From positions 25,883 to 89,882 of IMG/VR virus record IMGVR_UViG_3300032242_003075: a stretch of DNA of 64,000 nt. One strand, written 5' to 3'. The stretch comes from a virus. Made by a program: the position numbers and the translations under genes. The stretch's first letter is position 1. Every line of letters starts with the position of its first letter. The notes under the pieces are model-generated. The model was not told the origin of the DNA. It saw nothing but the letters and a program-made list of their open reading frames with translations, and did no database searches. Shown one piece after another: positions 13,574-64,000 of this stretch.

Positions 13574-13905
13574 TGAGCACCGAAATACAAACCGGCTTTT
13601 TGCCACTATTCGAAAGAGTCCTAGTTCTACCGGATTCAGTTGAGACTAAAACTGAGACAGGAATCATTTTGCCGCCTGAGGCTCGAAAGAGACCTAACAC
13701 CGGGACCGTAATTTCACTAGGTCATTTGGTTGCAACTAATTCAGGTTGCCCAGTAAAGGAAGGCAATCGCGTCCTCTATCAAAGATACTCCGGACTGGAC
13801 GTTAAATGGGACAATAAAGATTATCATTTAATAATGGCTAACGATCTATTAGCAATTATTGATAAGGATCAAGAAACAACACTTGAGCTAAAGGAAAATG
13901 TTTAA
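13573..13905 (+). CDS. groES: Co-chaperonin GroES
   Basis: PLFERVLV, mobile loop KTETGIILP, G.V...G, V..G.RVLY.RYSG. Confidence 0.92.
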   Translation: MSTEIQTGFLPLFERVLVLPDSVETKTETGIILPPEARKRPNTGTVISLGHLVATNSGCPVKEGNRVLYQRYSGLDVKWDNKDYHLIMANDLLAIIDKDQETTLELKENV

Positions 13906-47968: not shown

Positions 47969-48466
47969 TTAATTTTCGCCAAGTTGTATTCCATACCTGA
48001 ATTTCTTTGGATCTATTCCTCCGTTCATGTCGACTTCGATTTCATACGGTCTTAATGGTAGAGTTCCGTAGGTGATGTCGATTCTATCGGTGAATGGTCC
48101 AACGTCGATTATCTCAATATCTTCGATTACTGGTTCTCCAGAAGGTCCATCATATTCATATTCGAATGTCATGGTCATGCTCTTAATCATTAAGTCAATG
48201 TCACCGATTCCGTAATTATCGTACACTGGGCTAACTTCGTAGTGAATTATTAAGCTCCTTAATATTAGATAGTCAACACTAGTTTCTTCAATCAGCCCCA
48301 TTCTCCTTAGTCTCTCAACGTTTGGGTCCTGGTCATTAATTATTTGACTAAGCAGCGTTGGCTCATCGACTGCATTAAGTTCACGAGAATCCAGTTCCAT
48401 TCTGAAATTATGTTCCTGCAATGACTCATTAATTACGAATCCCTTAAATGTTGCCGCTCTTATCAT
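47969..48466 (-). CDS. Hypothetical, putative head-internal protein
   Basis: TFKGFVINES leader and ERLRRMGL motif. Confidence 0.6.
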   Translation of the reverse strand: MIRAATFKGFVINESLQEHNFRMELDSRELNAVDEPTLLSQIINDQDPNVERLRRMGLIEETSVDYLILRSLIIHYEVSPVYDNYGIGDIDLMIKSMTMTFEYEYDGPSGEPVIEDIEIIDVGPFTDRIDITYGTLPLRPYEIEVDMNGGIDPKKFRYGIQLGEN

Positions 48467-48467
48467 C

Positions 48468-48785
48468 TTAGATTTTTGATTTTTTGCCAGTTGATTTTAA
48501 GGATTCCCATTGGTTAAAACGCACGATAACTCTTTCGCTAATTTGGTCGACAGATTCTCTTTCAATGTTGTCGTCGTACAGTCCAGGAATCACTCTTAAA
48601 GTTTGCCCGTTGATCTTAACTGGATGATCTAACTCAACCTCGAATCTATTGACCTGTGGCTGGTAGCTGTTTTGATAAATTTCGGTGATCGTCGCAGGCT
48701 GACCGTCTACTGCTTCTAATGTTTCATTTTGCATCTCTTCATCGCTGATTCGTAAAATGACCCTGTCTCCGATGTTAAATTCCAT
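48468..48785 (-). CDS. Small SH3-like beta-barrel protein
   Basis: F.IGDRV......G....ITEI.....FEVELD. Confidence 0.5.
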   Translation of the reverse strand: MEFNIGDRVILRISDEEMQNETLEAVDGQPATITEIYQNSYQPQVNRFEVELDHPVKINGQTLRVIPGLYDDNIERESVDQISERVIVRFNQWESLKSTGKKSKI

Positions 48786-49050
48786 GAGCTGCTTTATGTA
48801 TCTTTATTTTTAGGGTTCCTGTTCCTTTGATTAGCCTATGCCATTCATGTCTGGGAATTTCCGTAGTATTATTTAACGTTGACGGTAGAGCATTATCCAA
48901 TTGTATCATCCAATCAGTCTCTTCAATTGATTCAATCACCCTGGTCTCGTCGTCCCTATGCCATTTTAACTCAATTGGATCAATGTCCTGAGAAAATTCT
49001 CGAATGACGTATCCATTTTCCATTTCTGAGTCCGAGTAAATCTGCATCAC
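48775..49050 (-). CDS. Small cupin-like protein
   Basis: WHRD.E.R ... IP...WHRLIKG.G.L. Confidence 0.55.
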   Translation of the reverse strand: MMQIYSDSEMENGYVIREFSQDIDPIELKWHRDDETRVIESIEETDWMIQLDNALPSTLNNTTEIPRHEWHRLIKGTGTLKIKIHKAAHGI

Positions 49051-49547
49051 TTACTTGATCTGACCTTTTTAGCTAGGTCCTTGTCCGCCTTTCCCCAAGT
49101 TCCGCTGGACTTTGTGACGAACGAATTCACCCTTGCATGAGCCCAAGCCGTTTGGCTCTGTCCTGGCCTGTGTCCTGTTTTCCAGGCAGCCATTCCTCGA
49201 TTGAACACCTGCTTTAGAATTCCAAATGGAATGTTGTACTTTTTAGCCTTTTTCCTTAATGACTCATCTGCTGAGCTTGACTCATTTAGCCTAGTCCAGT
49301 CAGCGAAGCTGTACACCTGATTCTCACTCATTTCAGAGTTCACCTGTTTGGTGTATGAACTTTTGACTTTAGAACCTTTGAACTTTCCATCTTTCCCCAA
49401 GTCACCTGGCATTGGTTTATAAGCATTGGGCTCAGAGTCACTCATTTTTGCTTGATGTTTCATTTGGCTCTGCTTTTTATCCTTTTGGTCTTTGCTTAGG
49501 CCTTTAAAATAGGGGCCTGATCTGCCGGTTACCTTTGCTTCTTTCAT
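49047..49547 (-). CDS. Basic conserved viral protein, putative head protein
   Basis: L..V..RG.AAW..GHRPG.....WA.ARVNSF motif, which I recall from T4-like phages and large DNA viruses; internal SFADW..LNES. Confidence 0.6.
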   Translation of the reverse strand: MKEAKVTGRSGPYFKGLSKDQKDKKQSQMKHQAKMSDSEPNAYKPMPGDLGKDGKFKGSKVKSSYTKQVNSEMSENQVYSFADWTRLNESSSADESLRKKAKKYNIPFGILKQVFNRGMAAWKTGHRPGQSQTAWAHARVNSFVTKSSGTWGKADKDLAKKVRSSK

Positions 49548-49558
49548 TCTAAAGCTTT

Positions 49559-49846
49559 TTATTTTTTACTTAATTTTCTTTTTACTGCAGCTCTGACCTT
49601 TTCCATTTTACTAGCGTAACTTGGATTTGAATTTCGGTTAAACACGATTTGCTGGTTTAAACTGCCTGTGATCTTTCGCATATCACCGCCTCTCGTTCTA
49701 ATTAACCAATCAGCAAGAGCATTTATGCCAAGCTTTTTAAATTTGCCATGTGCGTCTGGTGAATTAGAATCATGCCAGTCAGGCGATCCTTCGGTCTTTT
49801 TCTTTTCAGAGACGTCGTATTGTTGGTAAGTCTTTAAGTACTTCAT
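49559..49846 (-). CDS. Small basic putative head-internal protein
   Basis: MKYLKTYQQY...E leader. Confidence 0.6.
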   Translation of the reverse strand: MKYLKTYQQYDVSEKKKTEGSPDWHDSNSPDAHGKFKKLGINALADWLIRTRGGDMRKITGSLNQQIVFNRNSNPSYASKMEKVRAAVKRKLSKK

Positions 49847-49847
49847 T

Positions 49848-50819
49848 TTACCAGAATCCTGGATAAGTTTTACCTCCCCATAGGTGAGCGTATCGATTTA
49901 TTCTGCAGGCCCAATAGCCAGCGGTCAATTTATCGTTTTTAAGATGACACTGATGCCTTGCTGCAAAGCTTTTTCTTGCCTTTGGGTCGCTGACCTTTGC
50001 TGTGAGTCCGCCGTGCACATCGCCGAATGCAATTTTTTTTACCTTTTTCGTCTTTGGGTTCATCACGTAAACATGATACTTCTTTTCTCCTCCCCTCATG
50101 GGCTTTCCAAGTTCAACAGTCTTATCATGATATTCTGCCTCAAACAGGAAGTCCAACGGTACGGTTTCACCAGAGTATTCACCAAATCGACCCAAATCAG
50201 TTTCTTCGAATAAGCGTTTATCGATTCCTTCCAGCAAAAGTTCTCCACTGTCAAATCTTTTTCTGGCTTCAAGTAACAGATCAAGGTGAGATTTGCTAGC
50301 TGGTCGATACACCGACTCGGCTATAGATAGTCCCTCATTAATGTGATACTTTAAACTTTCGGACATTGGGTCCAAGCTACGATCCGGAATTCTATCCCAT
50401 ACCTTTTGATTGTTCATTCCATTTCCCCTAGCTATTTGAGTTTCCAGGGCCATGTCCTTAAGGAAGATTAAGGCTAGTTCAACGTTTCCTTCGTCCATTT
50501 CGGATTGTACTATGTCAGCTGCACTATCCGTTAGCTTAACTCGATACACCACCGCCCATCTTTGTGCATTGTACTTGCACCTAATTTGCATCATGTTGAG
50601 ATATCCGCCGTACTCCTTTTTAATCGGATCTATTTGTCCAGTATCAGTAGTTAGTCCCATTCTATTGAGTCGATCTATCTGTTCGGATCTAGTTAGGTCA
50701 GGTTCCTTTATGAATGATTCAAGACCATCGCATGCAGCTATTCCGTAATACCAGCTTGTTGGTTCTTCGCCCCTTCTGGATTCGTTAAATTGAGTAAATT
50801 TTAGTACGTGACTCATCAC
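49848..50819 (-). CDS. Multidomain putative head protein
   Basis: LKFTQFNES leader, DRLNRMGL motif, C-terminal basic domain KKY.VYV...KK..FG...RKSF.ARH.C...AGYWAC. Confidence 0.6.
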   Translation of the reverse strand: MMSHVLKFTQFNESRRGEEPTSWYYGIAACDGLESFIKEPDLTRSEQIDRLNRMGLTTDTGQIDPIKKEYGGYLNMMQIRCKYNAQRWAVVYRVKLTDSAADIVQSEMDEGNVELALIFLKDMALETQIARGNGMNNQKVWDRIPDRSLDPMSESLKYHINEGLSIAESVYRPASKSHLDLLLEARKRFDSGELLLEGIDKRLFEETDLGRFGEYSGETVPLDFLFEAEYHDKTVELGKPMRGGEKKYHVYVMNPKTKKVKKIAFGDVHGGLTAKVSDPKARKSFAARHQCHLKNDKLTAGYWACRINRYAHLWGGKTYPGFW

Positions 50820-50825
50820 TTTTAG

Positions 50826-51248
50826 TTAATTAAGTTTCTCCAAGGATCCACCGCACTTACATTTTCTATCCTCAGCAACGTCCTGTTGTCTGTAAGCGGT
50901 TCCGCATTTATTGCACTTATGATTCATTCCAGCTTCATAAATCGGATTCTCGGTCATTTCTCCAATTAAGAAATTTGCAACTTCCTCGACATCATCCTTT
51001 GACGTTGCTATGTGGTCTACCGCCCAGTTATGACCGTTTCGTAGAAGCTCGTCCACCTTTTTTGGATCCATTTTTAACACAATTCCGGTTAGTCTATGTA
51101 TTGTTTCAAGATCTCCAAAAAACATGTAGTTCTCAACTCGGTGATGATCTTCATGTCTGATTCCCGGTTCTTGCATTTGCATTTCTTGATCGGTGATTGA
51201 TTCTTCATGATGATTCATGAAATTTTCAAATGTTTTAATTAATTGCAT
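50826..51248 (-). CDS. Putative head-internal protein with C-terminal Zn ribbon
   Basis: MQLIKTFENF leader; CNKCG...CKCGG. Confidence 0.6.
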   Translation of the reverse strand: MQLIKTFENFMNHHEESITDQEMQMQEPGIRHEDHHRVENYMFFGDLETIHRLTGIVLKMDPKKVDELLRNGHNWAVDHIATSKDDVEEVANFLIGEMTENPIYEAGMNHKCNKCGTAYRQQDVAEDRKCKCGGSLEKLN

Positions 51249-51256
51249 CTCTATTA

Positions 51257-52813
51257 TTATTTTATTTTTTGTTCCCTTACGAAGTCCATGAAACCTAGGA
51301 CCGCTGATTTTTTCTTTTTCTTGCCAAATGATCCAATTGATGAGAATTTATCACCTGAACCCAAGGTCGTTGCTGTCGGCGGAGTGATTGGGCCCATTGA
51401 TCCAATCGATCCAGGCGATTGCATGCTTGCTCCTGGTGAAACGCTTGCTGATGATCCTCCCATGTCTTCCGACACCAGAGTTGACTTTGGTTTGTCCACT
51501 ATTGAAGTGTCCATAATGAACATTCTTGAAATTGCATCAGCTTTCATCTCTCCCTCTCTGCCTCCAATCAACTTACCTATTGCCATTGCCGTCGAGTTTA
51601 AAGTTTTTGAGTACAGTTTATTTAGGTGCTCACCTGTTCTAGCGAATGCCTGTTCCTCCGGTGTTGTCGGAGCGGAACCTGCCCCAATTAAAAGACTTAG
51701 AACTTCCTGTGCAGCTTTTCTGAACTTCATGATTCTTGAATCGTCGGCTATCTGTTTTCCGGTTACCGGTAGAGCAGTTCGTTGATACAGAGGCAGCTTC
51801 TTTTTAAAATCATAGTGAATTCCTTTGAACTTAGCCGTGTCGAACTGTGAACTTTTGATTCTAGCTATTAATTCTTCCTGGATCTTGTCCACTAATTTAT
51901 ACAAGTATGCCTTACCCTCAGCTGAAATTTCCGGATATGTGTTAATGCTCGTTCTGATCGAATCGGCCTCGTTTCTGACGTCCTTTTCGTTGGTCCATGG
52001 GGTGTATTGAAATTCAAAGATACGTTTCATTAGGGCTGCAACATTCGGACTTATCATGATGCCGCTTCTAATGTCCTGAGTTCTTTCCTTTCCAAGTTCC
52101 CTTTCGACCTGAGCCGTGTAGAACGTATCGACAGAGTCGATCGCTTCCTTAAAATCATCACCGTAATTTGAGGTGATCTCGCTTGAATTCTGTATTTCCG
52201 AGAACAGATCCTCAGCCGCAGCTTCCTTGTTCTCCTGAGTATCAGCTTTTTGAAAATCTTCGAACGCTGATTTTACGTTCTCCGAAGCCATTTTGACCGG
52301 TAAAGCCCTAGACCGTATGAGCTCGTCCTTGACCCTCTTAATTTCTCTTAGTATTTCATCGGTGATCGGCTCGTTTGATGTTGACTTTAAAGTTTCGTAA
52401 ATTTGATCAAGTACTTCAAGCCTGGCCGCGATCATGATGATCTTATCCTGAATCGCATTAATCCTGGCCGAATTGCTCGGCTTCTTCTTAAACTCTTCCC
52501 TTAGTTGGGCCTCGTACGATTTAAACCTCTCAGTTAAGTACTTAAAGTAATTGGTAATTGCGATTTTTATCTTTGGGTTAATGAATACTCTGGTGAAAAT
52601 CGGGTCCTTTAACTTTTGGGTTAAATCGTCCTTGTCCAAGCTTAATAACCAGTCAAATATTTGGTCAAGTTTTTCGTAATCGCCGGTCTCATCGCTTGAT
52701 CCTCCGTTTTCAACGTGTGAGATGATCTCTCCAAGACCATCGCCTATCTGAATCAGATCGGTCTCTAGGATCAAATTCTGTATTTCTTGTAGTTTTTTAA
52801 CCTTTAAAAACAT
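51257..52813 (-). CDS. Hypothetical helical protein
   Basis: Long ORF; C-terminal GSGD and VLGFMDFVRE. Confidence 0.6.
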   Translation of the reverse strand: MFLKVKKLQEIQNLILETDLIQIGDGLGEIISHVENGGSSDETGDYEKLDQIFDWLLSLDKDDLTQKLKDPIFTRVFINPKIKIAITNYFKYLTERFKSYEAQLREEFKKKPSNSARINAIQDKIIMIAARLEVLDQIYETLKSTSNEPITDEILREIKRVKDELIRSRALPVKMASENVKSAFEDFQKADTQENKEAAAEDLFSEIQNSSEITSNYGDDFKEAIDSVDTFYTAQVERELGKERTQDIRSGIMISPNVAALMKRIFEFQYTPWTNEKDVRNEADSIRTSINTYPEISAEGKAYLYKLVDKIQEELIARIKSSQFDTAKFKGIHYDFKKKLPLYQRTALPVTGKQIADDSRIMKFRKAAQEVLSLLIGAGSAPTTPEEQAFARTGEHLNKLYSKTLNSTAMAIGKLIGGREGEMKADAISRMFIMDTSIVDKPKSTLVSEDMGGSSASVSPGASMQSPGSIGSMGPITPPTATTLGSGDKFSSIGSFGKKKKKSAVLGFMDFVREQKIK

Positions 52814-52814
52814 G

Positions 52815-52997
52815 TTACGATTTGCGAAATTTTTGTCGTTTTTGCCATTCCGAAAATGGCGTTACCCAAAAATTTCTTTCAATATTTTTCTGCAAGAAAT
52901 CGTATACATCATTTCCGGCCGGATGTTGGCGTACAGCGTTCTTAAGTGGTTCCTTGCCTTTGCTATAATTCTCTATGTTCTTGTTGCTTTTTTCCAT
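52815..52997 (-). CDS. Small hypothetical protein
   Basis: First gene after late promoter AATAAATAA (53003-53011). Confidence 0.5.
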   Translation of the reverse strand: MEKSNKNIENYSKGKEPLKNAVRQHPAGNDVYDFLQKNIERNFWVTPFSEWQKRQKFRKS

Positions 52998-53044
52998 CTA
53001 AATTATTTATTCATGAGTGGATCTCTCTGTTTGGCTACCAATTT

Positions 53045-53073
53045 AAAACTTTATTGTTCTTAGCAAATATAAT
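53045..53073 (+). promoter_or_regulatory. Putative early/middle promoter AAAAC-N18-TATAAT
   Basis: Recurrent bipartite motif. Confidence 0.55.
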
Positions 53074-53099
53074 TAAATAGTATTAAACTCATTAACTTA

Positions 53100-54671
53100 G
53101 TGAAATTTGAAGATATAGGTCAAGACGAAACCTCCCACATATCCCAAGTGTATTGGAATAAACAGTTAACGTGGGACCACCGGTTAAAGATTCTTAGTGA
53201 GTATTTAGGTAAATCAGAACGAACCGTTACTAAGTGGCTGGCTAAACTCGGAATCACCGAGAGTTCTGCTCCAGAATCTCCTCAGCTGGTTAAAGCTCGA
53301 GAAAAGAAGTTCAATAAAAAGCGCAAGCGATTCCTAATCACATGGTGTCAAAATGATACGCCGGTTCATGAACCTTTCATTTGTAACCTTGAGAAATACG
53401 CTGAATCGATAGACGCTGACATTCATGTAATTGCTGGAAGGTACCGAAACCCGACTTCAATATTTACGGATAAGAACTACGAGACTTGGGACGACAGAAT
53501 CTTGGATTACCTGGACGCTAATCGGCATGAAGTTCATAAGCACATGTGGATCATGTCGGACGTTAAGATTCAGCCAACCGCTACCAATCCAATGAGCGGC
53601 CTACAGGGAATGAGCGGACTAAATTCATGCGTGTTCGGTTCGCCAAAGGTTCACCTAGAAATGATTCCAGTTCTTGAGGATACCTTACCTAAGATGATGT
53701 TAACCACCGGTGCATGCACTCCAAAGAATTACACGGATTCAAAGGCCGGTAAAAAGGGAGAATTTCATCACACAATAGGATTCGTCATCGTTGAGATTAA
53801 GGATTCCAACGTATTTTTCGCTCGACAGGTCACAGCCACCGATGATGGTAACTTCACGGATCTTTACAATAAGGTCGAATACGATCCGTTAACCAATATC
53901 AGCTCTGTAACTCGAGTTAAAACGTTAGCTGCTGCAGTTCTTGGAGACATTCATTACGGACAACACGACGAAAGAGTCATAGATAGGACTCTAGAGCTAT
54001 TCGACAAGGTTAAGCCCGATCACGTTATCCTACATGATGTGTTTGACGGACTGTCAATAAATCACCATGAGACAAAGGATCCTTTTATACAGTACCAGCG
54101 TGAGGTTGACGGCACTAATTCTTTAAAAAGAGAAATTAACGAGATGCTAACCGGTCTGGATAAATTTAAGGGATATAACGTCACAGTTGTGAGAAGCAAT
54201 CACGATGATTTCTTGGACAGGTGGTTAAAGTTAACCGACTGGCGAAAGGCATCAACCTTAAAGAATTCCCTAGAATACATGGAATACGCATCCCTACTAC
54301 TTAGGGGAGTTGCACCAAACGGAGTCATACCGTATCTAATCAATCAGAAATTTCCAAAGTTTAGGACCTTGGGTAGAAGCGATAGCTTTGTCGTTAAGGG
54401 TTGGGAACTTGCCCAACATGGAGACATTGGAGCAAACGGCTCAAGGGGATCATTATTACAATTTAGGACCCTGAATACCAAGATAATAGTCGCACATTAT
54501 CATTCTCCAGGTCGTAAGGACGGAGCATTAGCGGTTGGAACCTCCACCAAGCTAAGGGTTAATTACAACATCGGCCCCAGTAGTTGGTTACAGTCTCACG
54601 TGATAATTCATCAGGACGGAAAGGCCCAGCACATAAATTTTATCAAGGGCGAATTCACAACTCTCACATAA
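53100..54671 (+). CDS. T5 A1-like metallophosphoesterase/nuclease with N-terminal HTH
   Basis: GD.H.G, HD.FDG.S.NHH, SNHD, QHGD.G.NGSRG, H.HSP; TTGA.T..NY...KAG.K.EFHH. Confidence 0.72.
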   Translation: MKFEDIGQDETSHISQVYWNKQLTWDHRLKILSEYLGKSERTVTKWLAKLGITESSAPESPQLVKAREKKFNKKRKRFLITWCQNDTPVHEPFICNLEKYAESIDADIHVIAGRYRNPTSIFTDKNYETWDDRILDYLDANRHEVHKHMWIMSDVKIQPTATNPMSGLQGMSGLNSCVFGSPKVHLEMIPVLEDTLPKMMLTTGACTPKNYTDSKAGKKGEFHHTIGFVIVEIKDSNVFFARQVTATDDGNFTDLYNKVEYDPLTNISSVTRVKTLAAAVLGDIHYGQHDERVIDRTLELFDKVKPDHVILHDVFDGLSINHHETKDPFIQYQREVDGTNSLKREINEMLTGLDKFKGYNVTVVRSNHDDFLDRWLKLTDWRKASTLKNSLEYMEYASLLLRGVAPNGVIPYLINQKFPKFRTLGRSDSFVVKGWELAQHGDIGANGSRGSLLQFRTLNTKIIVAHYHSPGRKDGALAVGTSTKLRVNYNIGPSSWLQSHVIIHQDGKAQHINFIKGEFTTLT

Positions 54672-54697
54672 AAAAAGCTCCTTATGGAGCTTTTTTT
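54670..54697. terminator. Bidirectional terminator
   Basis: A7-gctcc-ttat-ggagc-T7. Confidence 0.85.
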
Positions 54698-56558: not shown

Positions 56559-56563
56559 GTTGT

Positions 56564-57172: not shown

Positions 57173-57699
57173 GATAGCCTTAATTTATCAACCTGAACAT
57201 CATTTGCTAGGACCTTTGCCGTTTCCCAATCGATCGTAATGATTCTACTTTTATCAACAAAAACGAATTCAACCTTAGCCTTCATCTCTGATTTTACGAA
57301 ATGCAAGGTGTATTTGATTACTTCCCATAGGGAATCCTCAAATATCGTGATTGATTCTGCATCGTTCTCGGAGATTAGAGAGCTCACAAGCTCAGCCTTT
57401 TCTGAACCTCTTCCCAATAGGTAACACTTGTCAAATTCTATTTCGTGATTTCTCAGAATTTCAAGGACTCTATCCTCACATTCTTTCACCCTATGGGTTA
57501 CCAGGTAGTTTGAGTATGCGTCCCTTGTTCGGTCAATGATGTTTCCTATTCCAACGATATTTAGGCTCTCAGATAGTGAGACTGGTGAATCAAACCATTC
57601 GTAAGGGGTCATTCCCCTTGCTTCACTGCACGTGTATCCAGGTACCCTAAATAGGGTCTCATCAAAGTCAAATACGTTAATGTGTAAGCCTTTCTGCAT
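57169..57699 (-). CDS. HAD-superfamily phosphatase
   Basis: VFDFDETLF, LVT.R, K, IFEDS. Confidence 0.75.
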   Translation of the reverse strand: MQKGLHINVFDFDETLFRVPGYTCSEARGMTPYEWFDSPVSLSESLNIVGIGNIIDRTRDAYSNYLVTHRVKECEDRVLEILRNHEIEFDKCYLLGRGSEKAELVSSLISENDAESITIFEDSLWEVIKYTLHFVKSEMKAKVEFVFVDKSRIITIDWETAKVLANDVQVDKLRLS

Positions 57700-57705
57700 G
57701 CAAGT

Positions 57706-57734
57706 ATTTTACTGATAAATAAACCAGTAGTTTT
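57706..57734 (-). promoter_or_regulatory. AAAAC-N18-TAAAAT promoter overlapping a divergent late promoter (GATAAATA, + strand, 57714-57721)
   Basis: Both motifs lie within the 53-bp divergent intergenic region. Confidence 0.5.
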
Positions 57735-57752
57735 ACCTAAACCACTTTAATT

Positions 57753-58223
57753 ATGAATCGATCGCTACGAAAAACAAGAGAATACGATGGAAACCGATAC
57801 CATGTAATTAGAGATTGCGTTCAGAACCAGGTGCCGTTCGTCATCTATAATTTTACAAGCTCAAAGCAGTACAATCAGGTTCTTAGCGACATAGATGCTT
57901 ACGGTAAGCTTTCCTACGTCATACAGGCCCTACACTCAATTGAACAATCAGGTTCTCGAATCAGACGAGTTTATCCAAGCCTGTTTGTCACCAATCATGG
58001 AACTGACGTAAGCAACGATAAATTTAAGGAAATCGTCAAGGGTTCAATTAAGCACTATTCGCTAGACTCGATAGTGTGTCTCTACGACGGTGCAGTATCG
58101 GTATTTTACAAAAATGGAGATCACCACCAGATCGGCGAGACAATATATAGTAGCCAAACTCCGCAAGATTTTCTGTCCGACTTTTACCAGATCGAAAGCA
58201 CCTATTACTGTTTCATAGCCTAA
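57753..58223 (+). CDS. Hypothetical protein
   Basis: ORF after a late-promoter motif. Confidence 0.6.
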   Translation: MNRSLRKTREYDGNRYHVIRDCVQNQVPFVIYNFTSSKQYNQVLSDIDAYGKLSYVIQALHSIEQSGSRIRRVYPSLFVTNHGTDVSNDKFKEIVKGSIKHYSLDSIVCLYDGAVSVFYKNGDHHQIGETIYSSQTPQDFLSDFYQIESTYYCFIA

Positions 58224-58249
58224 AACTTTAATGATCTCCGTGATACAAG
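58222..58249 (+). promoter_or_regulatory. Putative early/middle promoter AAAAC-N17-TACAAG
   Basis: Recurrent motif; implies the real start is ATG 58259. Confidence 0.5.
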
Positions 58250-58705
58250 ATGTTAATCATGGACGAAGTAACAAGATCACCAAAGCGAACGATTGCTGAA
58301 GTATTTAGGGAAAAACGTGAATCCTTTTCCGGAGAAATTTACGTTGGAATTAAGCTTCTGGAGAACATTCGAAAGATTCCGGAGGCTCAAGTCACCTTTT
58401 TAAGCTTAAGGCAGCGAATGCTAGAGGAAAATCACACCTTAATTGAGCATTTCACCCAATTAAAGAAGAGTTATAGGGAAAAAAAGGGAGAGGAATGGAT
58501 CGATGCTTCGACAAGCCGTCAAGTTCGTTATAATTCCACCGAAAAGAATACCATAGTCGATGGCAAGACCGCTGCGATCAAGGAAAAGATCGAACAGGTG
58601 GAGAACCAAATCGGGTTCTACGCTGAGTCAATAAAGACAATTGATGCCGTGCTATTTGGAATAAAGACTAGGTTGGACGTACAAAAGCTATTGGACGGTC
58701 ATTAA
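58250..58705 (+). CDS. UvsY-like recombination mediator
   Basis: About 150-aa helical protein next to uvsW, as in T4-like phages. Confidence 0.55.
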   Translation: MLIMDEVTRSPKRTIAEVFREKRESFSGEIYVGIKLLENIRKIPEAQVTFLSLRQRMLEENHTLIEHFTQLKKSYREKKGEEWIDASTSRQVRYNSTEKNTIVDGKTAAIKEKIEQVENQIGFYAESIKTIDAVLFGIKTRLDVQKLLDGH

Positions 58706-58722
58706 AAATAGCAACATGCTAA

Positions 58723-60273
58723 TTGTTAACTTTTTCAATTTCAAAGGACAAACTTCACCTTCAATTAATACACCACGACACTAAGGGCGAATTAAAGGAT
58801 CTGCAACTTCATTTCAGAAAGAGGCAAAGGGGATACCAGTTCAATCGTCTCTATAAACGAAAGTTATGGGACGGTTACGATCATTTTGTGATAATAGATG
58901 AACAAACTAAGATTCCAAAGATCGGTATTGGTCTTTGGCGAGAGCTTCTACACTTCGGCGAAAAGTACGATTACGAAATTCACATTGAGGATTTCGATTC
59001 TCTTTTCAACAAGGACTTTACCAAGGAAAAGTTAGATAAATTCACGTCAGTGATGCTTGACGGCTCGAACATTGAGGCTCGAGATTACCAATTAGAGGCA
59101 GTTTATCGAGCTCTAAAGTACAAGTTCTGTTCCCTTGAGCTTGCAACATCAGCCGGTAAGACTATCGTTTTTTACCTCTACCTAGCTTTCTTAAAACGTA
59201 AGGGCATTCTAAATAAGTCCGGTAAAAAGGCCCTAATTGTCGTTCCTAGAACAAGCCTTGTCGGTCAGACCGCCGAGAAATTCACGGATGATTACAACAC
59301 CGGCCTAATTAACTTTAACGTAATGACGATTGGCGGTAAAAACAAGTACAAGGACTCCGTGTTCGCTGAATCCGACATCGTCATTTCAACATACCAGAGC
59401 TTGATAAATCGGCCTGTTGAATTCTTTCGAGAATTTAGCATCATTTGCATCGACGAAACTCACACCTCGCGAGGAAATTCAGTCAGAACAATTTTAATTA
59501 ATGCGGTCAATGCCGAATATCGGTTAGGTTTATCAGGTACCATCAAGATAGAAGAAAATTATTCTGACTTCTTTAAGATCCAGGAATACCTTGGGCCGTT
59601 AAGCATGATGTTAAAGGCAAGTCACCTAATTGAAAACAATTACTCACCCGACGTTTACATTAAAATGGTTTACTTGGACTATCCAATGACCGAACCTTTC
59701 GTCAAGCAGTACATTGAACTTCGCGAACAGGGCCAAGGCGGTAAACACCTATACGAGTCGGAACGAGCGTTCATTGTATCATACGAACCCAGAATAGAAT
59801 TCATTTCTCGTTTTGTTAAGAAGCTTGGAGGTAATACTCTAGTCTTGTACATCAACGTTAAGGATGCATACGGCCAACGAATTTGCGAAAAGATCAAGGA
59901 ATGGAACGATCAAGTTTACTACATCGACGGTGGAGTCGACATAACTGAACGTGATGATTACCAACGAATAATGGAAGCTAATTCAGGAATCGTTCTGGTG
60001 GCCTCGTACGGTACATTTTCGACCGGAATTGATCTCCGTAATGTCAATCACATCATCTTGGCCGAAAGTTATAAGTCCGAGGTGACAATTCGACAATCAA
60101 TAGGTCGAGGTATGAGAGGTTTGAAGGGCAAGATTAAGGTGACGATCTACGATTTAATAGACGACCTTAAGGGTTACATTGTGAACCACGGTCAAGCCAG
60201 GGAAAAGATATACGTTGAACAACAGTTCATCGTGTCAAAGCATCGCTTTGACCTTACTAAGTTAGCAGATTAA
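58723..60273 (+). CDS. uvsW: UvsW-like SF2 helicase
   Basis: WDG, RDYQ..AV, ATSAGKT, STYQS, DETH, GLSGT, STGI, RQSIGRG.R. Confidence 0.92.
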   Translation: MLTFSISKDKLHLQLIHHDTKGELKDLQLHFRKRQRGYQFNRLYKRKLWDGYDHFVIIDEQTKIPKIGIGLWRELLHFGEKYDYEIHIEDFDSLFNKDFTKEKLDKFTSVMLDGSNIEARDYQLEAVYRALKYKFCSLELATSAGKTIVFYLYLAFLKRKGILNKSGKKALIVVPRTSLVGQTAEKFTDDYNTGLINFNVMTIGGKNKYKDSVFAESDIVISTYQSLINRPVEFFREFSIICIDETHTSRGNSVRTILINAVNAEYRLGLSGTIKIEENYSDFFKIQEYLGPLSMMLKASHLIENNYSPDVYIKMVYLDYPMTEPFVKQYIELREQGQGGKHLYESERAFIVSYEPRIEFISRFVKKLGGNTLVLYINVKDAYGQRICEKIKEWNDQVYYIDGGVDITERDDYQRIMEANSGIVLVASYGTFSTGIDLRNVNHIILAESYKSEVTIRQSIGRGMRGLKGKIKVTIYDLIDDLKGYIVNHGQAREKIYVEQQFIVSKHRFDLTKLAD

Positions 60274-61076
60274 TACTCTCCATTAACTATGCGATCCACC
60301 GCCCACTCGTGAAAGATGTTGCTAGCATCGTTCCTAAATTCCATAATTCTTTCAATGAAGCCGACCATGTCCGATCTCCACTGGCTCAGCTCAGCTAAAT
60401 TTTCATCAACTAGTTGCTTTATTTCATCAATTGTCTTGAGCAAATCTTTCATTATTTCAGGGTCGTTGGCTAGACCCATTCGACTAAGTCTTTCATGTTC
60501 CGGGCTGTTTACCCTTGCGACCATCATCTCATAATCATCGGCCTCCTGTAATATCAGATCGTCATGGCAACCTGAATCTATGTATTCTCTAATGCCGTCC
60601 ATCCAGTACTCGTAATTGTGCTTTGGGCATATCAGCAACCAACCTCCGCTTCTGCCTCCCCATGCCACTTTAGCGATCCATTCGTTATTATCAGCGACCT
60701 CATAGGTAAAAAACTCCCGTTCCTCGGCCAGGAATAGCGAAACTAGCCTTTCTATCTCATCCTCAGTTAAGTCTTCATCCGACAGCTCAACCTCGGTTCT
60801 TAACTTTTCAACGTCCGGCCAAAATGGAACCTTTGCATCTATTGAAAAATGATCCCTGTGCACCATGTCAATCTCACGATTCCAATTGAAATCTGATTGG
60901 ATGCTAACCCATGCATTTTCCAGTTCAAGTATTTTTGCCGATACGGGTTTACTCCAATTGTATTGACTGAAACATTGTTCAAACTCCTGATAAACATAAG
61001 GCTTAGCTATTATGCGGCTTTCGTTTACCGTTTTTTTACCATGTTTGATCTTTAAGTATTCCGAGAAGGTAAGCAT
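60270..61076 (-). CDS. Hypothetical, putative head-internal protein
   Basis: MLTFSEYL...VNES leader; GGRSGGWL; ERLSRMGL. Confidence 0.6.
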   Translation of the reverse strand: MLTFSEYLKIKHGKKTVNESRIIAKPYVYQEFEQCFSQYNWSKPVSAKILELENAWVSIQSDFNWNREIDMVHRDHFSIDAKVPFWPDVEKLRTEVELSDEDLTEDEIERLVSLFLAEEREFFTYEVADNNEWIAKVAWGGRSGGWLLICPKHNYEYWMDGIREYIDSGCHDDLILQEADDYEMMVARVNSPEHERLSRMGLANDPEIMKDLLKTIDEIKQLVDENLAELSQWRSDMVGFIERIMEFRNDASNIFHEWAVDRIVNGEY

Positions 61077-61081
61077 TTTAA

Positions 61082-61696
61082 TTAAATCGATATTTTTGAT
61101 GCGATGACCACACCAAGTATGAGCTTGGTGTAAATGAGCTTAAAGTGAAAGTACGTTAGTATGACCCTAAAATCTGATCTGCTTAATTTCACTATTCCTT
61201 TACCTGACTGTAACTTGTTGAGGTTATTTATCAGCCTTGAGATGGTTGAGGTCGACCTACCTCCAATTAAGTTCTGTAAAACTTCGCTAAAAGTTTCCCT
61301 GCTTATTGAATTGGTGCCGTCACTAATCCTAGCGAGCCATTCATCCGTCTCAACTGAAACTTCTCTTTTTAGGATGATGTCCTCACTCCTTAGTCCATCG
61401 TCCAACCTTTTTGACATCCGGTCAAGATCCTCGACCTGATCAGCGATTTCACTGATCCAGATCAGGTCCTGCCTGTGCATGTATATTATTGCATTCATTG
61501 GATCCTGACGGTACTTAAAATCGATAACGTCGTTTGATTTTTCCATGAATGTCGGATTGTATTCCTCATCTAACTCGATCGCGGCTGTTTTAGAGGATGA
61601 AATTTTCATGTCAAAATCGTTATTGAAAGGAAAATTTATCATGAAAGGATAGTTTCGATTAATTCTTTCCCTATCTGTCGTAATTTCTTTTATCAT
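61082..61696 (-). CDS. Hypothetical protein
   Basis: ORF in the - strand cluster. Confidence 0.55.
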   Translation of the reverse strand: MIKEITTDRERINRNYPFMINFPFNNDFDMKISSSKTAAIELDEEYNPTFMEKSNDVIDFKYRQDPMNAIIYMHRQDLIWISEIADQVEDLDRMSKRLDDGLRSEDIILKREVSVETDEWLARISDGTNSISRETFSEVLQNLIGGRSTSTISRLINNLNKLQSGKGIVKLSRSDFRVILTYFHFKLIYTKLILGVVIASKISI

Positions 61697-61718
61697 CTTA
61701 TGTTAATGTACTTTTAAT

Positions 61719-63173
61719 TTATGATCGGATCTTCCTTACCTGATCAAGCCTTCGGATTGCAAACTGTCTAACTCTCTTAACTTTTTCAGTTTTGGCCAAT
61801 TTTTCCAAGACTTCAATTGGTGTGCTTTTATTACTAACTATAGTATCTCTAACTTGGACATAATCATCCGATGCCAATGCTGTCAGTATTTCAGCTGGGG
61901 TTTTTGGATTGCTTGCGACCGCTACTCTAACGTCCTTATCCATGTCGTTTGCTAGGCCGACGAAGTTTTCGTTTGATAACCTGTGACTACTGGCAGCAAT
62001 TGACCGAATTTCCCAATCCGGATCATCGGCCATTCGTGTTAAAACCGATTGCGGCACGTTAGCTGTTTGATCCATTGCGATATCCCTCAAGTATTCCTCA
62101 ATTGACTTGGCTAGGCCCATCCTAACTAACCTATCGTGTGACTCCTGGTCCCAAGCTTCGTCCAAGGAGTCGTCCTTTCGTCTTCTGTTTAACCTAGTCG
62201 CTTGCCTAACGTCGTCATCTGGGTCAACCGCTAACTGGTCAACTATGCTTTCTGGAGTGTTTGGGTTTAGCGCAACATGCTCTCGAACTTCGCTTGAGTC
62301 ATCTTTTGATAACTGCACCAATGCTTCAATAGGGCAGCTTAGATTACTTGCTACTTCTCTTCTAATTAGGTATTTCATGTCATTCGATAGTTTAATCAAG
62401 GTTTCTAACCCGGCGTTGGTCCTCTTAGCAACAGCTAGTCTAACCATGCCGCTCTCGTCATCGGCTAATCTGGCTAATGTTTCTCCAGATACGGCCGGAT
62501 GGTTCACAACCTTAACCTTAGTTGACCAGTCATCTCGATGCGCAATCAGTAGGTCCAAGACCCCAGTAGGTACTGGTGCCTTTGAATCATTATCTAGATC
62601 TATTTCCCAATCAGCAAGAGGTTTTAACAGTCCCATTTTAATCATTCTTTGAGTATCCTCTAAGCCCAATTCCTCAAACACCTCAGGTTGCTTACCTTTA
62701 TGAAGCTTAATTGCAGCTAACGTGTTAATGGCCTCAGCTTGAATGAATCGGTCATCATCCTTGGTTAATTTACTTAAAATTGGTTCTGGCGTTCTGCGAT
62801 TCTGTGCAACAATGTATCTGACTGAAGCACTATCATCATTGGATAGTTTAACTAATATGTCTATTGGTACCTTTGGGTTAGCAACGACGCAGTATCTAAC
62901 GTCCGGGTCGGTGTCATCCGCTAGCTCAAAAAGAGTCTCAATCGGACTGTTTTTATTTTGTGCGACAATTGCTCTAATTTCCCAGTTTGATCTCTTAGCT
63001 AATTGGGCCAAGACGATTGTTGGAATGTCAAGATTAAGATAATCGCTTTCATAGTCACCCAATAGGTCAGTTAGTTTATCTTCCCAGTCTTCAACTGACT
63101 TGGCTAGGCCCATCCTAACTAACCTATCATGTGACTCCTGGTCCCAGCTCTCGAATAATTTAACGTATTTCAT
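61719..63173 (-). CDS. HEAT/LRV-like repeat protein composed of three fused units
   Basis: About 24-aa repeats VR..VA.N..TP...L..LA.D; three RMGL/KMGL leader segments. Confidence 0.8.
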   Translation of the reverse strand: MKYVKLFESWDQESHDRLVRMGLAKSVEDWEDKLTDLLGDYESDYLNLDIPTIVLAQLAKRSNWEIRAIVAQNKNSPIETLFELADDTDPDVRYCVVANPKVPIDILVKLSNDDSASVRYIVAQNRRTPEPILSKLTKDDDRFIQAEAINTLAAIKLHKGKQPEVFEELGLEDTQRMIKMGLLKPLADWEIDLDNDSKAPVPTGVLDLLIAHRDDWSTKVKVVNHPAVSGETLARLADDESGMVRLAVAKRTNAGLETLIKLSNDMKYLIRREVASNLSCPIEALVQLSKDDSSEVREHVALNPNTPESIVDQLAVDPDDDVRQATRLNRRRKDDSLDEAWDQESHDRLVRMGLAKSIEEYLRDIAMDQTANVPQSVLTRMADDPDWEIRSIAASSHRLSNENFVGLANDMDKDVRVAVASNPKTPAEILTALASDDYVQVRDTIVSNKSTPIEVLEKLAKTEKVKRVRQFAIRRLDQVRKIRS

Positions 63174-63670
63174 CTATCGATTTCTTCTATTTAAGTTAGC
63201 AGTTGCCAGCTGCCTAATGTCCAAGTCTTTGCCTCTGGCTAACATTTCAAGAGCCTCAGTCGAGGTGTTCGGATTCTGGGCAACCATCCATCTAACTGAC
63301 GCTGTCTTGTCTACCGAAAGTCGGTCGAGAGCCTTAGTTGAGGTGTGACGATTCTGGGCAACATTCATCCTAACTGTCCAATAATCGTCATTCGCAAGTC
63401 GGTCAAGCGTCTCAATTGAGGTGTTCTGATTCTTTGCAACTGACAATCTAATGTTTGGAGTTTTGCCCTTGGCCAACTCGGCTAGAATCTCAGATGGAAT
63501 ATTAGCTCTGAATGGATCATCATATAGTTCTATCACGTACTCCTTGATCGACTTGACTAGGCCCATTTTGGCCAACATATTATATGACTCCTGGTCCCAG
63601 CTCTCGAATAATTTAACGTATTTCATCTATCGATTTCTTCTATTTAAGTTAGCAGTTGCCAGCTGCCTAA
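63132..63670. repeat. Identical 86-bp direct repeat (63132-63217 and 63585-63670) spanning gene junctions
   Basis: Read base by base; period 453 bp. A further 51-bp pair with 1 mismatch lies at 62103-62153 and 63096-63146. Confidence 0.9.
63174..63626 (-). CDS. HEAT/LRV-like repeat protein (single unit)
   Basis: MKYVKLFESWDQES leader + repeats. Confidence 0.8.
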   Translation of the reverse strand: MKYVKLFESWDQESYNMLAKMGLVKSIKEYVIELYDDPFRANIPSEILAELAKGKTPNIRLSVAKNQNTSIETLDRLANDDYWTVRMNVAQNRHTSTKALDRLSVDKTASVRWMVAQNPNTSTEALEMLARGKDLDIRQLATANLNRRNR

Positions 63671-64000
63671 CTTCCGAGTCTTTGTCCCCAGCTAGTCGTT
63701 CAAGCGTCTCAGTTGAGGTGTTCGGATTCTGGGCAACTGCCAGTTTAATGTACGACATCTCGTCATTCGCAAGTCGGTCAAGAGTCTTAACTGGAGTGTG
63801 TATATTCTTTGCAACTGACCATCTAATGTACGGTTGCTTGTCCTTGGCTAACTCGTCTAGGATCTCAGGAGGAATATCAGCATAATATAAGTTATCTCGA
63901 AGTTCTTCCTCGTACTCCTCGATCGACTTGACTAGGCCCATTTTGGCCAACCTATTATGGGCCTCACGGTCCCAATGTTCAAATATTTTAATGTATTTCA
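63627..64000 (-). CDS. HEAT/LRV-like repeat protein (single unit; start at window edge)
   Basis: Frame stays open to the edge: (M)KYIKIFEHWDREAHNRLAKMGL...; the A of the ATG would be at 64001. Confidence 0.8.
   Translation of the reverse strand, partial: KYIKIFEHWDREAHNRLAKMGLVKSIEEYEEELRDNLYYADIPPEILDELAKDKQPYIRWSVAKNIHTPVKTLDRLANDEMSYIKLAVAQNPNTSTETLERLAGDKDSEVRQLATANLNRRNR

What the first reader, a model, noticed from the sequence alone, without database searches (positions are those of the whole stretch)
47969..64000. A second shared short motif, (D/E)RLxRMGL, in otherwise unrelated tagged proteins
Seen eight times in six genes of four unrelated sequence types: ERLRRMGL (about 48295-48320), DRLNRMGL (about 50652-50675), ERLSRMGL (about 60471-60495), DRLVRMGL x2, QRMIKMGL, NMLAKMGL and NRLAKMGL (62107-63958). 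Every carrier also has the capsid-targeting-like tag. The motif looks like a short amphipathic helix inserted at variable positions and would survive cleavage of the first tag. Inference: a second address label, e.g. for ejection through the tail, anchoring to the inner capsid or DNA, or binding one host target. Together with the first tag this suggests an undescribed two-signal protein delivery system. I know of no characterised function for it.
Basis: partly seen in the sequence, partly recalled or inferred. Interest (0 to 1): 0.8.

Follow-up and report, generated by a model that had tools for sequence, protein, structure and literature searches.

The report
Second shared helix motif in tagged phage proteins
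A family of uncultured giant phages puts the same short helix, with a version of its own in each phage, just behind the head-loading tag of many unrelated proteins, which suggests that one still unknown partner reads them all.

Summary
Eight copies of x[RM][LM]x[RK]MGL lie in six minus-strand genes of four unrelated types; 0.0004 are expected by chance. All six genes carry the T4-like N-terminal tag.

The motif is the local version of a wider one: an acidic helix cap followed by L-x-x-Phi-G-Phi (Phi = hydrophobic). Relatives of this roughly 270 kb T4-like phage keep it at the same aligned position in at least seven unrelated tagged families. L and G are invariant in the two families I aligned.

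In 36 of 61 copies a hydrophobic-x-Glu site, the presumed prohead-protease cut, lies 8-12 residues upstream, usually exactly 10. The same holds at internal junctions of multi-module proteins.

Each phage has its own version: RLxRMGL here, ELxxMGF, xLxx[IL]G[LM] or [DE]Lx[ED]LGL in relatives. Unrelated proteins of one genome resemble each other more than orthologues do, and they share no codons.

I read it as the second half of a two-part leader: a docking helix that stays on the mature protein and is read by one co-evolving partner. That partner is not identified. The T4 internal proteins lack the motif, and in T4 the tag alone is enough. "Two-signal delivery" is therefore plausible but unproven. 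I found no description in print. The scan had already noted the tag and the LRV cassettes of this genome, but not this motif.

The parts
48293..48316 (-). Motif copy ERLRRMGL, residues 51-58 of the 165-aa protein (family A)
   Evidence: L53 and G57 are 2 of the 16 invariant columns in 10 family-A sequences. AF2 gives a short helix at 48-55 in a low-confidence linker ahead of a beta domain (mean pLDDT 57).
47969..48466 (-). Carrier gene, family A (165 aa), with the N-terminal tag MIRAATFKGFVINES
   Evidence: Orthologues in G001, G002, G003 and G005 keep the motif at the same aligned place. No Pfam or PHROG family.
50652..50675 (-). Motif copy DRLNRMGL, residues 49-56 of the 323-aa protein (family B)
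   Evidence: Orthologues have ELLDMGI, DLLNMGI, ELEDMGF or DLFDLGL at the same place.
49848..50819 (-). Carrier gene, family B (323 aa), tag ..VLKFTQFNES. The C-terminal domain matches phrog_7595.
   Evidence: In G003 the tag is fused directly to the C-terminal domain (187 aa), and the N-terminal domain with the motif is missing.
60471..60494 (-). Motif copy ERLSRMGL, residues 195-202 of the 268-aa protein (family C)
   Evidence: L197 and G201 are 2 of the 17 invariant columns in 17 sequences of about 25% identity. AF2 (mean pLDDT 86, pTM 0.79) gives helix 192-199, loop 200-206 and then a long helix 207-264.
60270..61076 (-). Carrier gene, family C (268 aa), tag MLTFSEYLKI...NES
   Evidence: (only itself in the 5.8-billion set). 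Foldseek finds no PDB match at E <= 0.001.
61719..63173 (-). Carrier gene of 484 aa: three fused LRV/HEAT-repeat cassettes. Each starts with the motif: 63105-63128 DRLVRMGL, 62628-62651 QRMIKMGL, 62112-62135 DRLVRMGL. Both internal junctions keep a hydrophobic-x-Glu site (VFE, LDE) exactly 10 residues before the motif.
   Evidence: Pfam LRV 2.8e-45, self-similarity, spacing.
63174..63626 (-). Carrier gene of 150 aa (LRV). Tag MKYVKLFESW, motif NMLAKMGL at 63558-63581.
63627..63998 (-). Carrier gene (LRV), 5' end cut by the end of the contig. Tag KYIKIFEHW, motif NRLAKMGL at 63933-63956.
   Evidence: A full-length relative (P0014, 123 aa) starts MKYIKIFEHW.
38284..40266 (-). Context: prohead maturation protease (residues 29-250) fused to a C-terminal part that holds eleven 14-residue repeats Y-x-x-Y-[LVI]-[AG]-E. 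It is the presumed enzyme that cuts after the tag's Glu.
   Evidence: phrog_207 at 1.5e-37; sequence and repeats; six orthologues at 63-78% identity.

Best explanation
The eight copies are this phage's version of a clade-wide element: an acidic helix cap ([SND]-x-[ED]-[ED]) followed by L-x-x-Phi-G-Phi, that is, a short amphipathic helix closed by a glycine. It is the second half of a two-part leader used by a subset of the tagged proteins of these roughly 270 kb T4-like phages. The order is tag (F-x-x-F-Phi-x-E, then S or N), about nine polar or acidic residues, motif helix, cargo domain. Shown: the motif is non-random; it is conserved at orthologous positions in unrelated families; it is linked to the tag; it sits at a preferred spacing of 10 residues from a hydrophobic-x-Glu site, also at internal module junctions; and its variable positions take genome-specific versions without shared codons. 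Inferred: the prohead protease cuts after that Glu as in T4, so each mature protein, or each module of a polyprotein, begins just before the helix. Also inferred: all copies in one phage dock to one common partner that differs between phages, most likely a component of the prohead, the capsid interior or the maturation machinery. That docking would sort, hold or position this subclass of cargo. I did not identify the partner or the step served (retention, placement or order of exit).
For: Chance: 8 copies seen against 3.9e-4 expected. Cross-validation: a 20-column model trained only on other genomes ranks 6 known copies first in this genome (10.2 to 3.7 bits). The best unknown hit scores 1.4 bits, and 7 of the 8 copies are in the top 10. 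Conservation: L and G are invariant in family A (10 sequences) and family C (17 sequences at about 25% identity), and seven families keep the motif at the aligned place across G001, G002, G003 and G005. The families are unrelated: carriers hit only their own orthologues at E <= 1e-3. Tag link: Fisher p = 6.7e-7. A profile of tag plus motif finds 25 proteins at E <= 1e-3 among 1.84 billion, and 22 of these 25 begin with a tag followed by the motif. Spacing: 36 of 61 copies have [LIVFM]-x-E 8-12 residues upstream, mostly exactly 10. This includes the internal junctions of the window's 484-aa protein, of P0003 and of P0005, and 5 of the 7 internal junctions the scan found in the eight-module P0024. 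Versions: copies from different families of one genome are 37.8% identical at six variable positions, copies from different genomes 19.5%, orthologues 23.6%; 0-1 of 20,000 within-family shuffles reach that gap. There is no codon sharing: 64/186 within genomes against 169/568 between genomes. A gp21-type protease is encoded here.
Against: No partner was found. Between this phage and its closest relative G005 (capsid protein 90% identical) the motif changes from R/R to D/E at two positions. Yet the capsid protein shows no acid-for-base swap and the protease-scaffold protein shows one, in the wrong direction. The version signal is weaker once this genome, where the motif was first seen, is left out: 88 of 20,000 shuffles reach it; 230 without the Phi position; 1,208 with only the four helix positions; 633 for families A-C alone. 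In family C the helix lies in a confidently folded region (pLDDT blocks 80-88), so there it could be an ordinary structural helix. 25 of 61 copies have no hydrophobic-x-Glu site at 8-12 residues, including all three non-LRV copies of this window (18, 12 and 19). A more distant relative, G006, has tags but no adjacent motif, and T4 internal proteins lack it, so the tag works without it. No cleavage, packaging or binding has been measured in this clade. ORF calls, the tag pattern and the list of copies are my own and crude.
Confidence: 0.45

Rival explanations
1. The motif is a recognition element on the primed side of the prohead protease's cut site. A helix 10-15 residues after the scissile Glu binds an exosite, marks which hydrophobic-x-Glu sites are cut, and so defines module boundaries in polyproteins.
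For: There is a fixed spacing of 10 between hydrophobic-x-Glu and the motif's Leu. That site and the motif persist at internal junctions where the tag's aromatic residues have decayed: SLDEAW and EVFEEL in the window's 484-aa protein, DMLED in P0005, and x-x-E-S at the junctions of P0024. The related giant-phage protease of SPN3US cuts after A-x-E and prefers Ser at P1' (passages of PMC10052503), which matches the E-S seen here.
Against: Families A, C, E and F carry the motif with no such site at that distance. Many tagged proteins have no motif, so cleavage cannot depend on it in general. There are no compensating charge changes in the protease between G000 and G005. The passages I read describe a cleavage logo of 10 residues on each side and mention only P4-P1' preferences.
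Confidence: 0.2
2. The motif acts after ejection. It is a docking helix for one host protein, and the versions follow the different hosts of the phages.
For: It stays on the mature protein. Versions differ even between close relatives (G000 and G005, capsid protein 90% identical). No compensating change was seen in the two head proteins examined.
Against: No host is known and no host protein was tested. Nothing shows that these proteins are ejected. The fixed spacing to the cut site and the repeat at every module junction are not explained by binding to a host.
Confidence: 0.15
3. There is no partner. The motif is a self-contained structural unit (capped helix, glycine stop, hydrophobic staple) that begins domains and perhaps packs against the tag helix. 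The genome-specific versions come from drift plus biased discovery.
For: In family C the helix is part of a well-predicted fold. Similar L-x-x-[ML]-G-[LF] helices occur in unrelated solved proteins at insignificant scores. The version signal drops to 1,208 of 20,000 shuffles for the four helix positions once G000 is left out.
Against: A purely local structural role does not explain why unrelated folds in one genome share R, R/K, M and L at four positions (8 of 8 for three of them, 7 of 8 for the first) while their orthologues elsewhere do not, with independent codons. A model trained elsewhere finds no copy of any other version in this genome. AF2 did not pack the tag against the helix; the tag region has pLDDT below 50 in both models.
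Confidence: 0.12
4. The motif is helix 1 of a small UBA-like or SAP/HeH-like domain present in all carriers.
For: ELxxMGF resembles the helix-1 and 'MGF loop' signature of UBA domains (recalled, not from a call). A profile search of PDB sequences lists a UBA domain (NUB1, 1veg) at E = 0.38, and a Ubiquilin-1-like Pfam model scores E = 0.042 on the family C segment.
Against: No hit is significant. There is no Pfam family at E <= 0.01 in any non-LRV carrier. What follows the motif differs completely between families: a beta strand in A, a long helix in C, LRV repeats elsewhere. There is therefore no shared 35-40-residue domain.
Confidence: 0.04

Closest known systems
Capsid targeting sequences (CTS) of phage T4 internal proteins IPI, IPII, IPIII and Alt, removed by the gp21 prohead protease
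   Same: The carriers start with a T4-like tag: aromatic residues three apart, then hydrophobic-x-Glu. A gp21-type protease is encoded nearby. As in T4, unrelated proteins share the leader (passages of PMC9026906).
   Different: T4's CTS is 10-19 residues long and is sufficient alone for packaging and delivery. T4 ipI, ipII and ipIII have no L-x-x-Phi-G-Phi element; the motif model scores them at -2 bits or less. Here a second conserved helix follows at +10, stays on the mature protein, recurs at internal junctions and varies by genome.
Propeptides and ejection proteins of giant phages (SPN3US, phiKZ, 201phi2-1)
   Same: Many head proteins are processed after x-x-Glu by a related protease, with Ser preferred at P1' (passages of PMC10052503).
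   Different: Those propeptides are mostly 111-254 residues long. The passages I read describe no shared helix downstream of the cut.
Encapsulin cargo-loading peptides and microcompartment encapsulation peptides (recalled, not from a call)
   Same: The working principle is alike: a short hydrophobic, glycine-containing peptide or amphipathic helix on unrelated cargo proteins docks to one shell or core partner.
   Different: Those peptides are the only signal, usually at one terminus, and bind the shell protein. Here the element is a second one behind a cleavable tag, the partner is unknown, and the capsid protein shows no compensating change. This is an analogy, not membership.
UBA domain helix 1 with its MGF loop
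   Same: There is a local sequence likeness to ELxxMGF (E = 0.38).
   Different: The likeness is not significant, and no common three-helix domain follows the motif.

Membership tests
T4-type capsid targeting sequence (the first tag of the carriers) | Extreme N-terminal position, two aromatic or hydrophobic residues three apart, followed by hydrophobic-x-Glu | tested here: met
   The N-termini of all six carriers compared with T4 ipII/ipIII MKTYQEFIAE and ipI MKTFKEF... read from NC_000866.
T4-type capsid targeting sequence (the first tag of the carriers) | A gp21-family prohead protease in the same genome | tested here: met
   ORF 38284-40266 matches phrog_207 'head maturation protease' at 1.5e-37.
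T4-type capsid targeting sequence (the first tag of the carriers) | Tagged proteins are packaged and the tag is cut off | not testable with these tools
   The phage is uncultured and no proteome exists. The finding rests on analogy.
T4-type CTS as the explanation of the second motif | The motif should be part of the known CTS or present in T4 internal proteins | tested here: not met
   ipI, ipII and ipIII score -2 bits or less with the motif model and have no L-x-x-Phi-G-Phi.
UBA domain | A significant match to the family model, and a 35-45-residue three-helix bundle | tested here: not met
   No Pfam hit at E <= 0.01 in the non-LRV carriers. None on the motif segments except a Ubiquilin-1-like model at E = 0.042, below its cut-off. 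PDB profile search: NUB1 UBA at E = 0.38. The sequence after the motif differs by family.
SAP / HeH / Rho_N helix-extended-helix motifs | A significant match to the family model, and a conserved second helix | tested here: not met
   No such family in the Pfam scans. The columns after the motif are not conserved across families.
LRV / HEAT repeat proteins (three of the six carriers) | Pfam LRV repeats above the gathering score | tested here: met
   PF01816 at 2.8e-45, 8.8e-16 and 2.3e-11. The motif lies in front of the repeats, not inside them.
Encapsulin cargo-loading peptide | A C-terminal peptide with the G-S-L-x-I-G-S-L-K-like consensus (recalled) that binds the HK97-fold shell protein | tested here: not met
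   The position (N-terminal or internal) and the consensus both differ. Binding to the shell was not tested.

The most novel reading that the evidence does not exclude
These phages run a two-code cargo system. The T4-like tag loads proteins into the prohead and is cut off. The helix 10 residues further on is a phage-specific 'zip code' on the new N-terminus of each mature protein or polyprotein module. One co-evolving receptor reads it and sorts a subclass of cargo, for example for placement at the portal and ordered exit. Swapping versions between phages would then mis-sort the cargo.
Probability: 0.2. Interest if true: 0.8.

Novelty: new variant of a known kind. Interest (0 to 1): 0.6.

Why it matters
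How phages choose, arrange and deliver the proteins they carry inside the head is known in detail only for the 10-residue T4 tag. A second conserved element that stays on the mature protein and changes in step across unrelated proteins would point to an unknown sorting or docking step in head assembly of giant phages. It would give a sequence handle for predicting a subclass of virion cargo in metagenomes. It would also offer a second, orthogonal signal for engineering protein loading into capsids. The pattern of tag remnant, ten residues, then motif at internal junctions further predicts that several large proteins of these phages are polyproteins cut by the prohead protease.

Tried and rejected
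Chance, or a DNA-level repeat: rejected. 3.9e-4 copies are expected and the copies use different codons.

One shared domain: rejected. There is no BLASTP similarity between the types, no Pfam or PHROG family on the motif segments, and the sequence after the motif differs by family.

Internal translation start at the Met: rejected. Relatives have I, L or F in that place.

A second protease site inside or just after the motif: I saw no consistent hydrophobic-x-Glu there by eye in the outputs. This was not counted.

The tag as a mimic of one scaffold repeat: the 14-residue repeats of the protease's C-terminal part look like the tag. But a model of the 11 repeats scores the first 30 residues of 297 G001 proteins at 6.0 bits or less, and the reversed control reaches 5.6. 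Not supported.

Charge-compensation screen, G000 against G005, over 63 orthologue pairs: the capsid and protease-scaffold proteins show none. Small excesses in ORF 42100-43182 (4 to 1) and ORF 61082-61696 (5 to 3) are within noise.

Predicted complex of the protease-scaffold protein (660 aa, 6-row alignment) with the tag-plus-motif module (45 aa, 10 rows): no verdict, score 0.00 in two runs, controls not run. This is no evidence either way.

Cultured phages: blastn of the baseplate region found nothing. tblastn of the 45-aa module gave only three chance-level Gordonia hits at E = 8. The sheath protein's nearest records are huge uncultured phages, Lak phages, a Flavobacterium phage and Sphingomonas phage PAU at 26-36% identity.

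The 268-aa protein has only itself in the 5.8-billion set, and a single-sequence scan of viral contigs found nothing. An alignment query then found 26 loci. The LRV protein has no match in the 4 related records searched.

Fold search of the family C model against the PDB: 0 matches at E <= 0.001. The ESM Atlas search on residues 1-45 of the 150-aa protein gave no usable feature hit and only generic helical matches.

T4-type late promoter TATAAATA: 7 sites in the window, none directly in front of a carrier. An AATAAATAA lies upstream of the small ORF that heads the 52997-to-47303 gene string. This is weak.

Print searches turned up no description of a second motif behind a capsid targeting tag. 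I read passages only of PMC9026906 and PMC10052503. Earlier notes of this scan held nothing on this motif.

Full report
WHAT THE WINDOW IS. The window is bases 25883-89882 of an 89.9 kb viral metagenome record that CheckV rates 33% complete. It encodes a T4-like set of genes. These include a 1008-aa sheath whose nearest database relatives are huge uncultured phages, Lak phages, a Flavobacterium phage and Sphingomonas phage PAU at 26-36% identity. They also include a capsid protein (phrog_138) and a head maturation protease (phrog_207). Relatives found through the 323-aa protein include records of about 271 kb. One of them, G001, has terminal repeats and is rated complete. So this is a fragment of an uncultured jumbo phage of about 270 kb.

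THE OBSERVATION. All lie on the minus strand inside six long ORFs between 47969 and 63998. The composition of the 78 ORFs predicts 3.9e-4 copies of the loose pattern and 4.3e-5 of the strict [DE]RL.RMGL, of which five are seen. No copy appeared in 300 proteome shuffles.

BLASTP among the carriers relates only the three LRV/HEAT-repeat genes to one another (Pfam LRV 2.8e-45). Five copies therefore belong to one paralogous family, and the independent count is four. The four types use different codons for the shared residues: 23 of 95 identical-residue codon pairs are identical. The sharing is at the protein level. All six genes begin with the T4-like tag.

I fetched the complete relative G001 and the partial relatives G002, G003, G005 and G006 and called ORFs with a simple script of my own. 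Orthologues of the three non-LRV carriers keep a related motif at the aligned position:
- Family A (165 aa): DQLKDLGF, AELKAMGF, AQLKAIGL, ADLAELGL and others.
- Family B (323 aa): GELEDMGF, TELLDMGI, DLFDLGL.
- Family C (268 aa): AELIEFGI, KELADMGL, NRLAEIGL, ELKELGL, ARLVRLGL and others.

The Leu and Gly are invariant in family A (2 of 16 invariant columns in 10 sequences). They are also invariant in family C (2 of 17 invariant columns in 17 sequences at about 25% identity). Four further tagged families of the relatives (D, E, F, Gf) carry the motif as well. Carriers hit only their own orthologues at E <= 1e-3.

The common form is an acidic cap ([SND]-x-[ED]-[ED]), a helix with L at position 0 and a hydrophobic residue at +3, a glycine at +4 and a hydrophobic residue at +5. 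A 20-column model trained only on the other genomes ranks six of the window's copies first (10.2 to 3.7 bits). The next hit scores 1.4 bits. Seven of the eight copies are in the top ten; the QRMIKMGL copy is missed.

LINK TO THE TAG, AND A FIXED SPACING. Over four genomes, 14 of 111 ORFs that match a crude tag pattern also match a loose motif pattern, against 10 of 634 untagged ORFs (Fisher p = 6.7e-7). In the complete genome G001, the six proteins scoring 5 bits or more all begin with a tag. One of them, MKHIKLFEEI, is a tag only by eye, because my pattern missed it.

A profile of ten N-terminal modules (tag plus motif, 49 positions) searched against 1.84 billion representative proteins finds 25 at E <= 1e-3 and 4 at E <= 1e-10. 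Of these 25, 22 begin with a tag followed by the motif. One has a tag with the motif further in. One has two tags and no motif. One (P0025) has no tag but has tandem 14-residue MGFDTK-type repeats. About ten of the 25 are proteins of families that were not used to build the profile. All are metagenomic, and none carries a useful name.

Measured over 61 copies, 36 have a [LIVFM]-x-E site 8-12 residues before the motif's Leu, and most have it exactly 10 residues before. The same holds at internal junctions of multi-module proteins:
- The window's 484-aa protein (VFE+10, LDE+10).
- P0003 and P0005.
- 5 of the 7 internal junctions that the scan found in P0024, an 894-aa protein with eight motif-headed modules whose junctions read x-x-E-S, 9-12 residues, L-x-x-L-G-L.
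At these junctions the tag's aromatic residues have decayed, but the Glu site and the helix remain.

The three non-LRV copies of this window do not follow the rule (distances 18, 12 and 19). Nor do families E and F, or most copies in families A and C.

STRUCTURE. AF2 on family A is poor (mean pLDDT 57). It places a short helix at residues 48-55, in a low-confidence linker ahead of a beta-rich domain. AF2 on family C is good (mean pLDDT 86, pTM 0.79). The tag region 1-24 is below pLDDT 50. The motif is helix 192-199 (pLDDT blocks 84 and 80), followed by a loop and a 58-residue helix. The fold has no PDB match at E <= 0.001. No coordinates were available, so I cannot say whether the hydrophobic face is buried.

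EACH PHAGE HAS ITS OWN VERSION. Here the copies read [DE]-R-L-x-[RK]-M-G-L. The four constrained positions are R (7 of 8 copies), R or K (8 of 8), M (8 of 8) and L (8 of 8). In G001 and G002 they read x-E-L-x-x-M-G-F, with a few exceptions. In G003 they read x-[QRH]-L-x-x-[IL]-G-[LMI]. In G005, the closest relative (capsid protein 90% identical), they read [DE]-L-x-[ED]-L-G-L.

At the six variable positions, copies from different families of one genome are 37.8% identical. Copies from different families of different genomes are 19.5% identical, and orthologous copies 23.6%. Shuffling genome labels within families reaches the observed gap in 1 of 20,000 trials, and in 0 of 20,000 after one more copy was added.

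The motif was first noticed in this genome because its copies look alike, so I repeated the test without it. The results were 88 of 20,000; 230 without the Phi position; 1,208 with only the four helix positions; and 633 for families A-C alone. The signal survives but is moderate.

Two facts argue against a discovery artefact here. First, the model trained on other genomes finds no copy of any other version in this genome. Second, codon identity at shared residues is no higher within genomes (64/186) than between them (169/568). That also excludes recent gene conversion.

WHAT IT MOST LIKELY IS. Shown so far: a protein-level, conserved motif; a link to the tag; a preferred distance from a Glu site that matches the cut site of T4-type and giant-phage proteases; recurrence at module junctions; and genome-specific versions.

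From established T4 biology, the first 10 residues of IPIII target proteins to the prohead core and gp21 removes them. Residues 4 and 7 serve targeting, and residues 8 and 10 serve processing (passages of PMC9026906). From this I infer that the carriers are loaded through the tag and cut after the Glu, so that each mature product starts about nine residues before the helix.

The concerted versions are best explained by one common ligand for all copies in a phage. I therefore read the motif as a docking helix on the mature N-terminus (or on an exposed linker in families A-C) of a subclass of head cargo. The partner, and the step served, are not identified. Confidence is 0.45.

RIVALS. The nearest rival is that the helix is an exosite signal for the protease itself (0.2). 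This explains the spacing and the junctions. It does not explain the copies that have no Glu site, nor the many tagged proteins that have no motif.

A host target read after ejection (0.15) would explain the versions without phage-side compensation. It would not explain the spacing.

A purely structural helix with no partner (0.12) fits the family C model, but it does not fit the uniform version across unrelated folds.

A UBA-like or SAP-like mini-domain (0.04) fails every family test I could run.

The capsid protein and the protease-scaffold protein show no compensating charge change between G000 and G005, although the motif flips from basic to acidic at two positions. This counts mildly against those two as partners.

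COMPARISON WITH WHAT IS KNOWN. T4 ipI, ipII and ipIII, read from NC_000866, have the tag but not the motif. In T4 the tag alone gives packaging and delivery. SPN3US propeptides are cut after A-x-E with Ser preferred at P1'. The passages I read describe no downstream helix (PMC10052503). Four full-text searches found no description of a second element behind a capsid targeting tag. I therefore rate this a new variant of a known kind, clade-restricted as far as I can see. The more distant relative G006 has tags but no adjacent motif. Earlier notes of this scan had recorded the tag (e1-6112336, e1-6112348) and the LRV cassettes (e1-6112356) on this genome, but not this motif.

LIMITS. Everything rests on sequence. 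No protein of this clade has been shown to be packaged, cut or bound. ORF calling, the tag pattern and the table of copies are my own and simple. Only five genomes enter the version test.

Noticed in passing
window 38284-40266 (-): The head maturation protease (residues 29-250) is fused to a 400-residue C-terminal part. That part holds eleven tandem 14-residue repeats (Y-x-x-Y-[LVI]-[AG]-E-x-[LV]-x-x-x-I-x), which looks like a built-in scaffold. It is conserved at 63-78% identity in five relatives. The likeness of the repeat to the N-terminal tag did not hold up in a model test.
   Followed up: partly
window 61719-63173 (-): The 484-aa LRV gene is three fused cassettes. The two internal junctions keep decayed tags (EVFEEL, SLDEAW) with a hydrophobic-x-Glu site. 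The protein may therefore be a polyprotein cut into three by the prohead protease.
   Followed up: partly
window 49559-49846 (-): The 95-aa tagged protein matches only the C-terminal 85-97 residues of family D proteins of relatives (443 aa in G001, 259 aa in G002; 63-68% identity). In this phage the motif-bearing N-terminal part of that family is absent.
   Followed up: partly
window 49848-50819 (-) and locus L032 9956-10519: The C-terminal domain of the 323-aa protein (phrog_7595) occurs widely on its own. In G003 the tag is fused straight to it (187 aa). The N-terminal domain that carries the motif is therefore an optional module.
   Followed up: partly
window 60270-61076 (-): Family C gives a confident AF2 model (mean pLDDT 86) with no PDB match at E <= 0.001. 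It has an invariant G-G-x-S-G-G-W stretch. Its function is unknown.
   Followed up: partly
window 31619-32257 (-): This 212-aa protein is very acidic (60 Asp+Glu) and has an internal tag-like stretch (..RTFEEFLNESEG..) near residue 108 and a poly-Glu tail. It is reminiscent of prohead core proteins.
   Followed up: no
window 34716-36425 (-): A 569-aa ORF matching the PHROG families 'homing endonuclease' (phrog_3339, 1.3e-99) and 'HNH endonuclease' sits directly after the capsid gene, inside the head gene string.
   Followed up: no
window 52815-52997 (-): A 60-aa ORF lies between the divergent genes. It is preceded by AATAAATAA, one base from the T4 late promoter core, and its stop codon lies 2 bases before the start codon of the 518-aa ORF. 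It may head the gene string that holds families A and B.
   Followed up: partly
protein P0025 (260 aa, metagenomic; not in the window): This untagged protein is made largely of tandem 14-residue units of the type C-[VM]-[AS]-M-G-F-D-T-K-x-[ED]-Y-[DE]-x, so the same L/V-x-x-M-G-F core occurs as a repeat. One source names it 'predicted lactoylglutathione lyase'. Its relation to the phage motif is unknown.
   Followed up: no
window 415-1983, 13573-13905 and 40331-41230: By the look of their N-terminal sequences alone (no family search was run), the phage encodes GroEL-like, GroES-like and J-domain (DnaJ-like) proteins. The J-domain gene lies between the protease and the baseplate genes.
   Followed up: no
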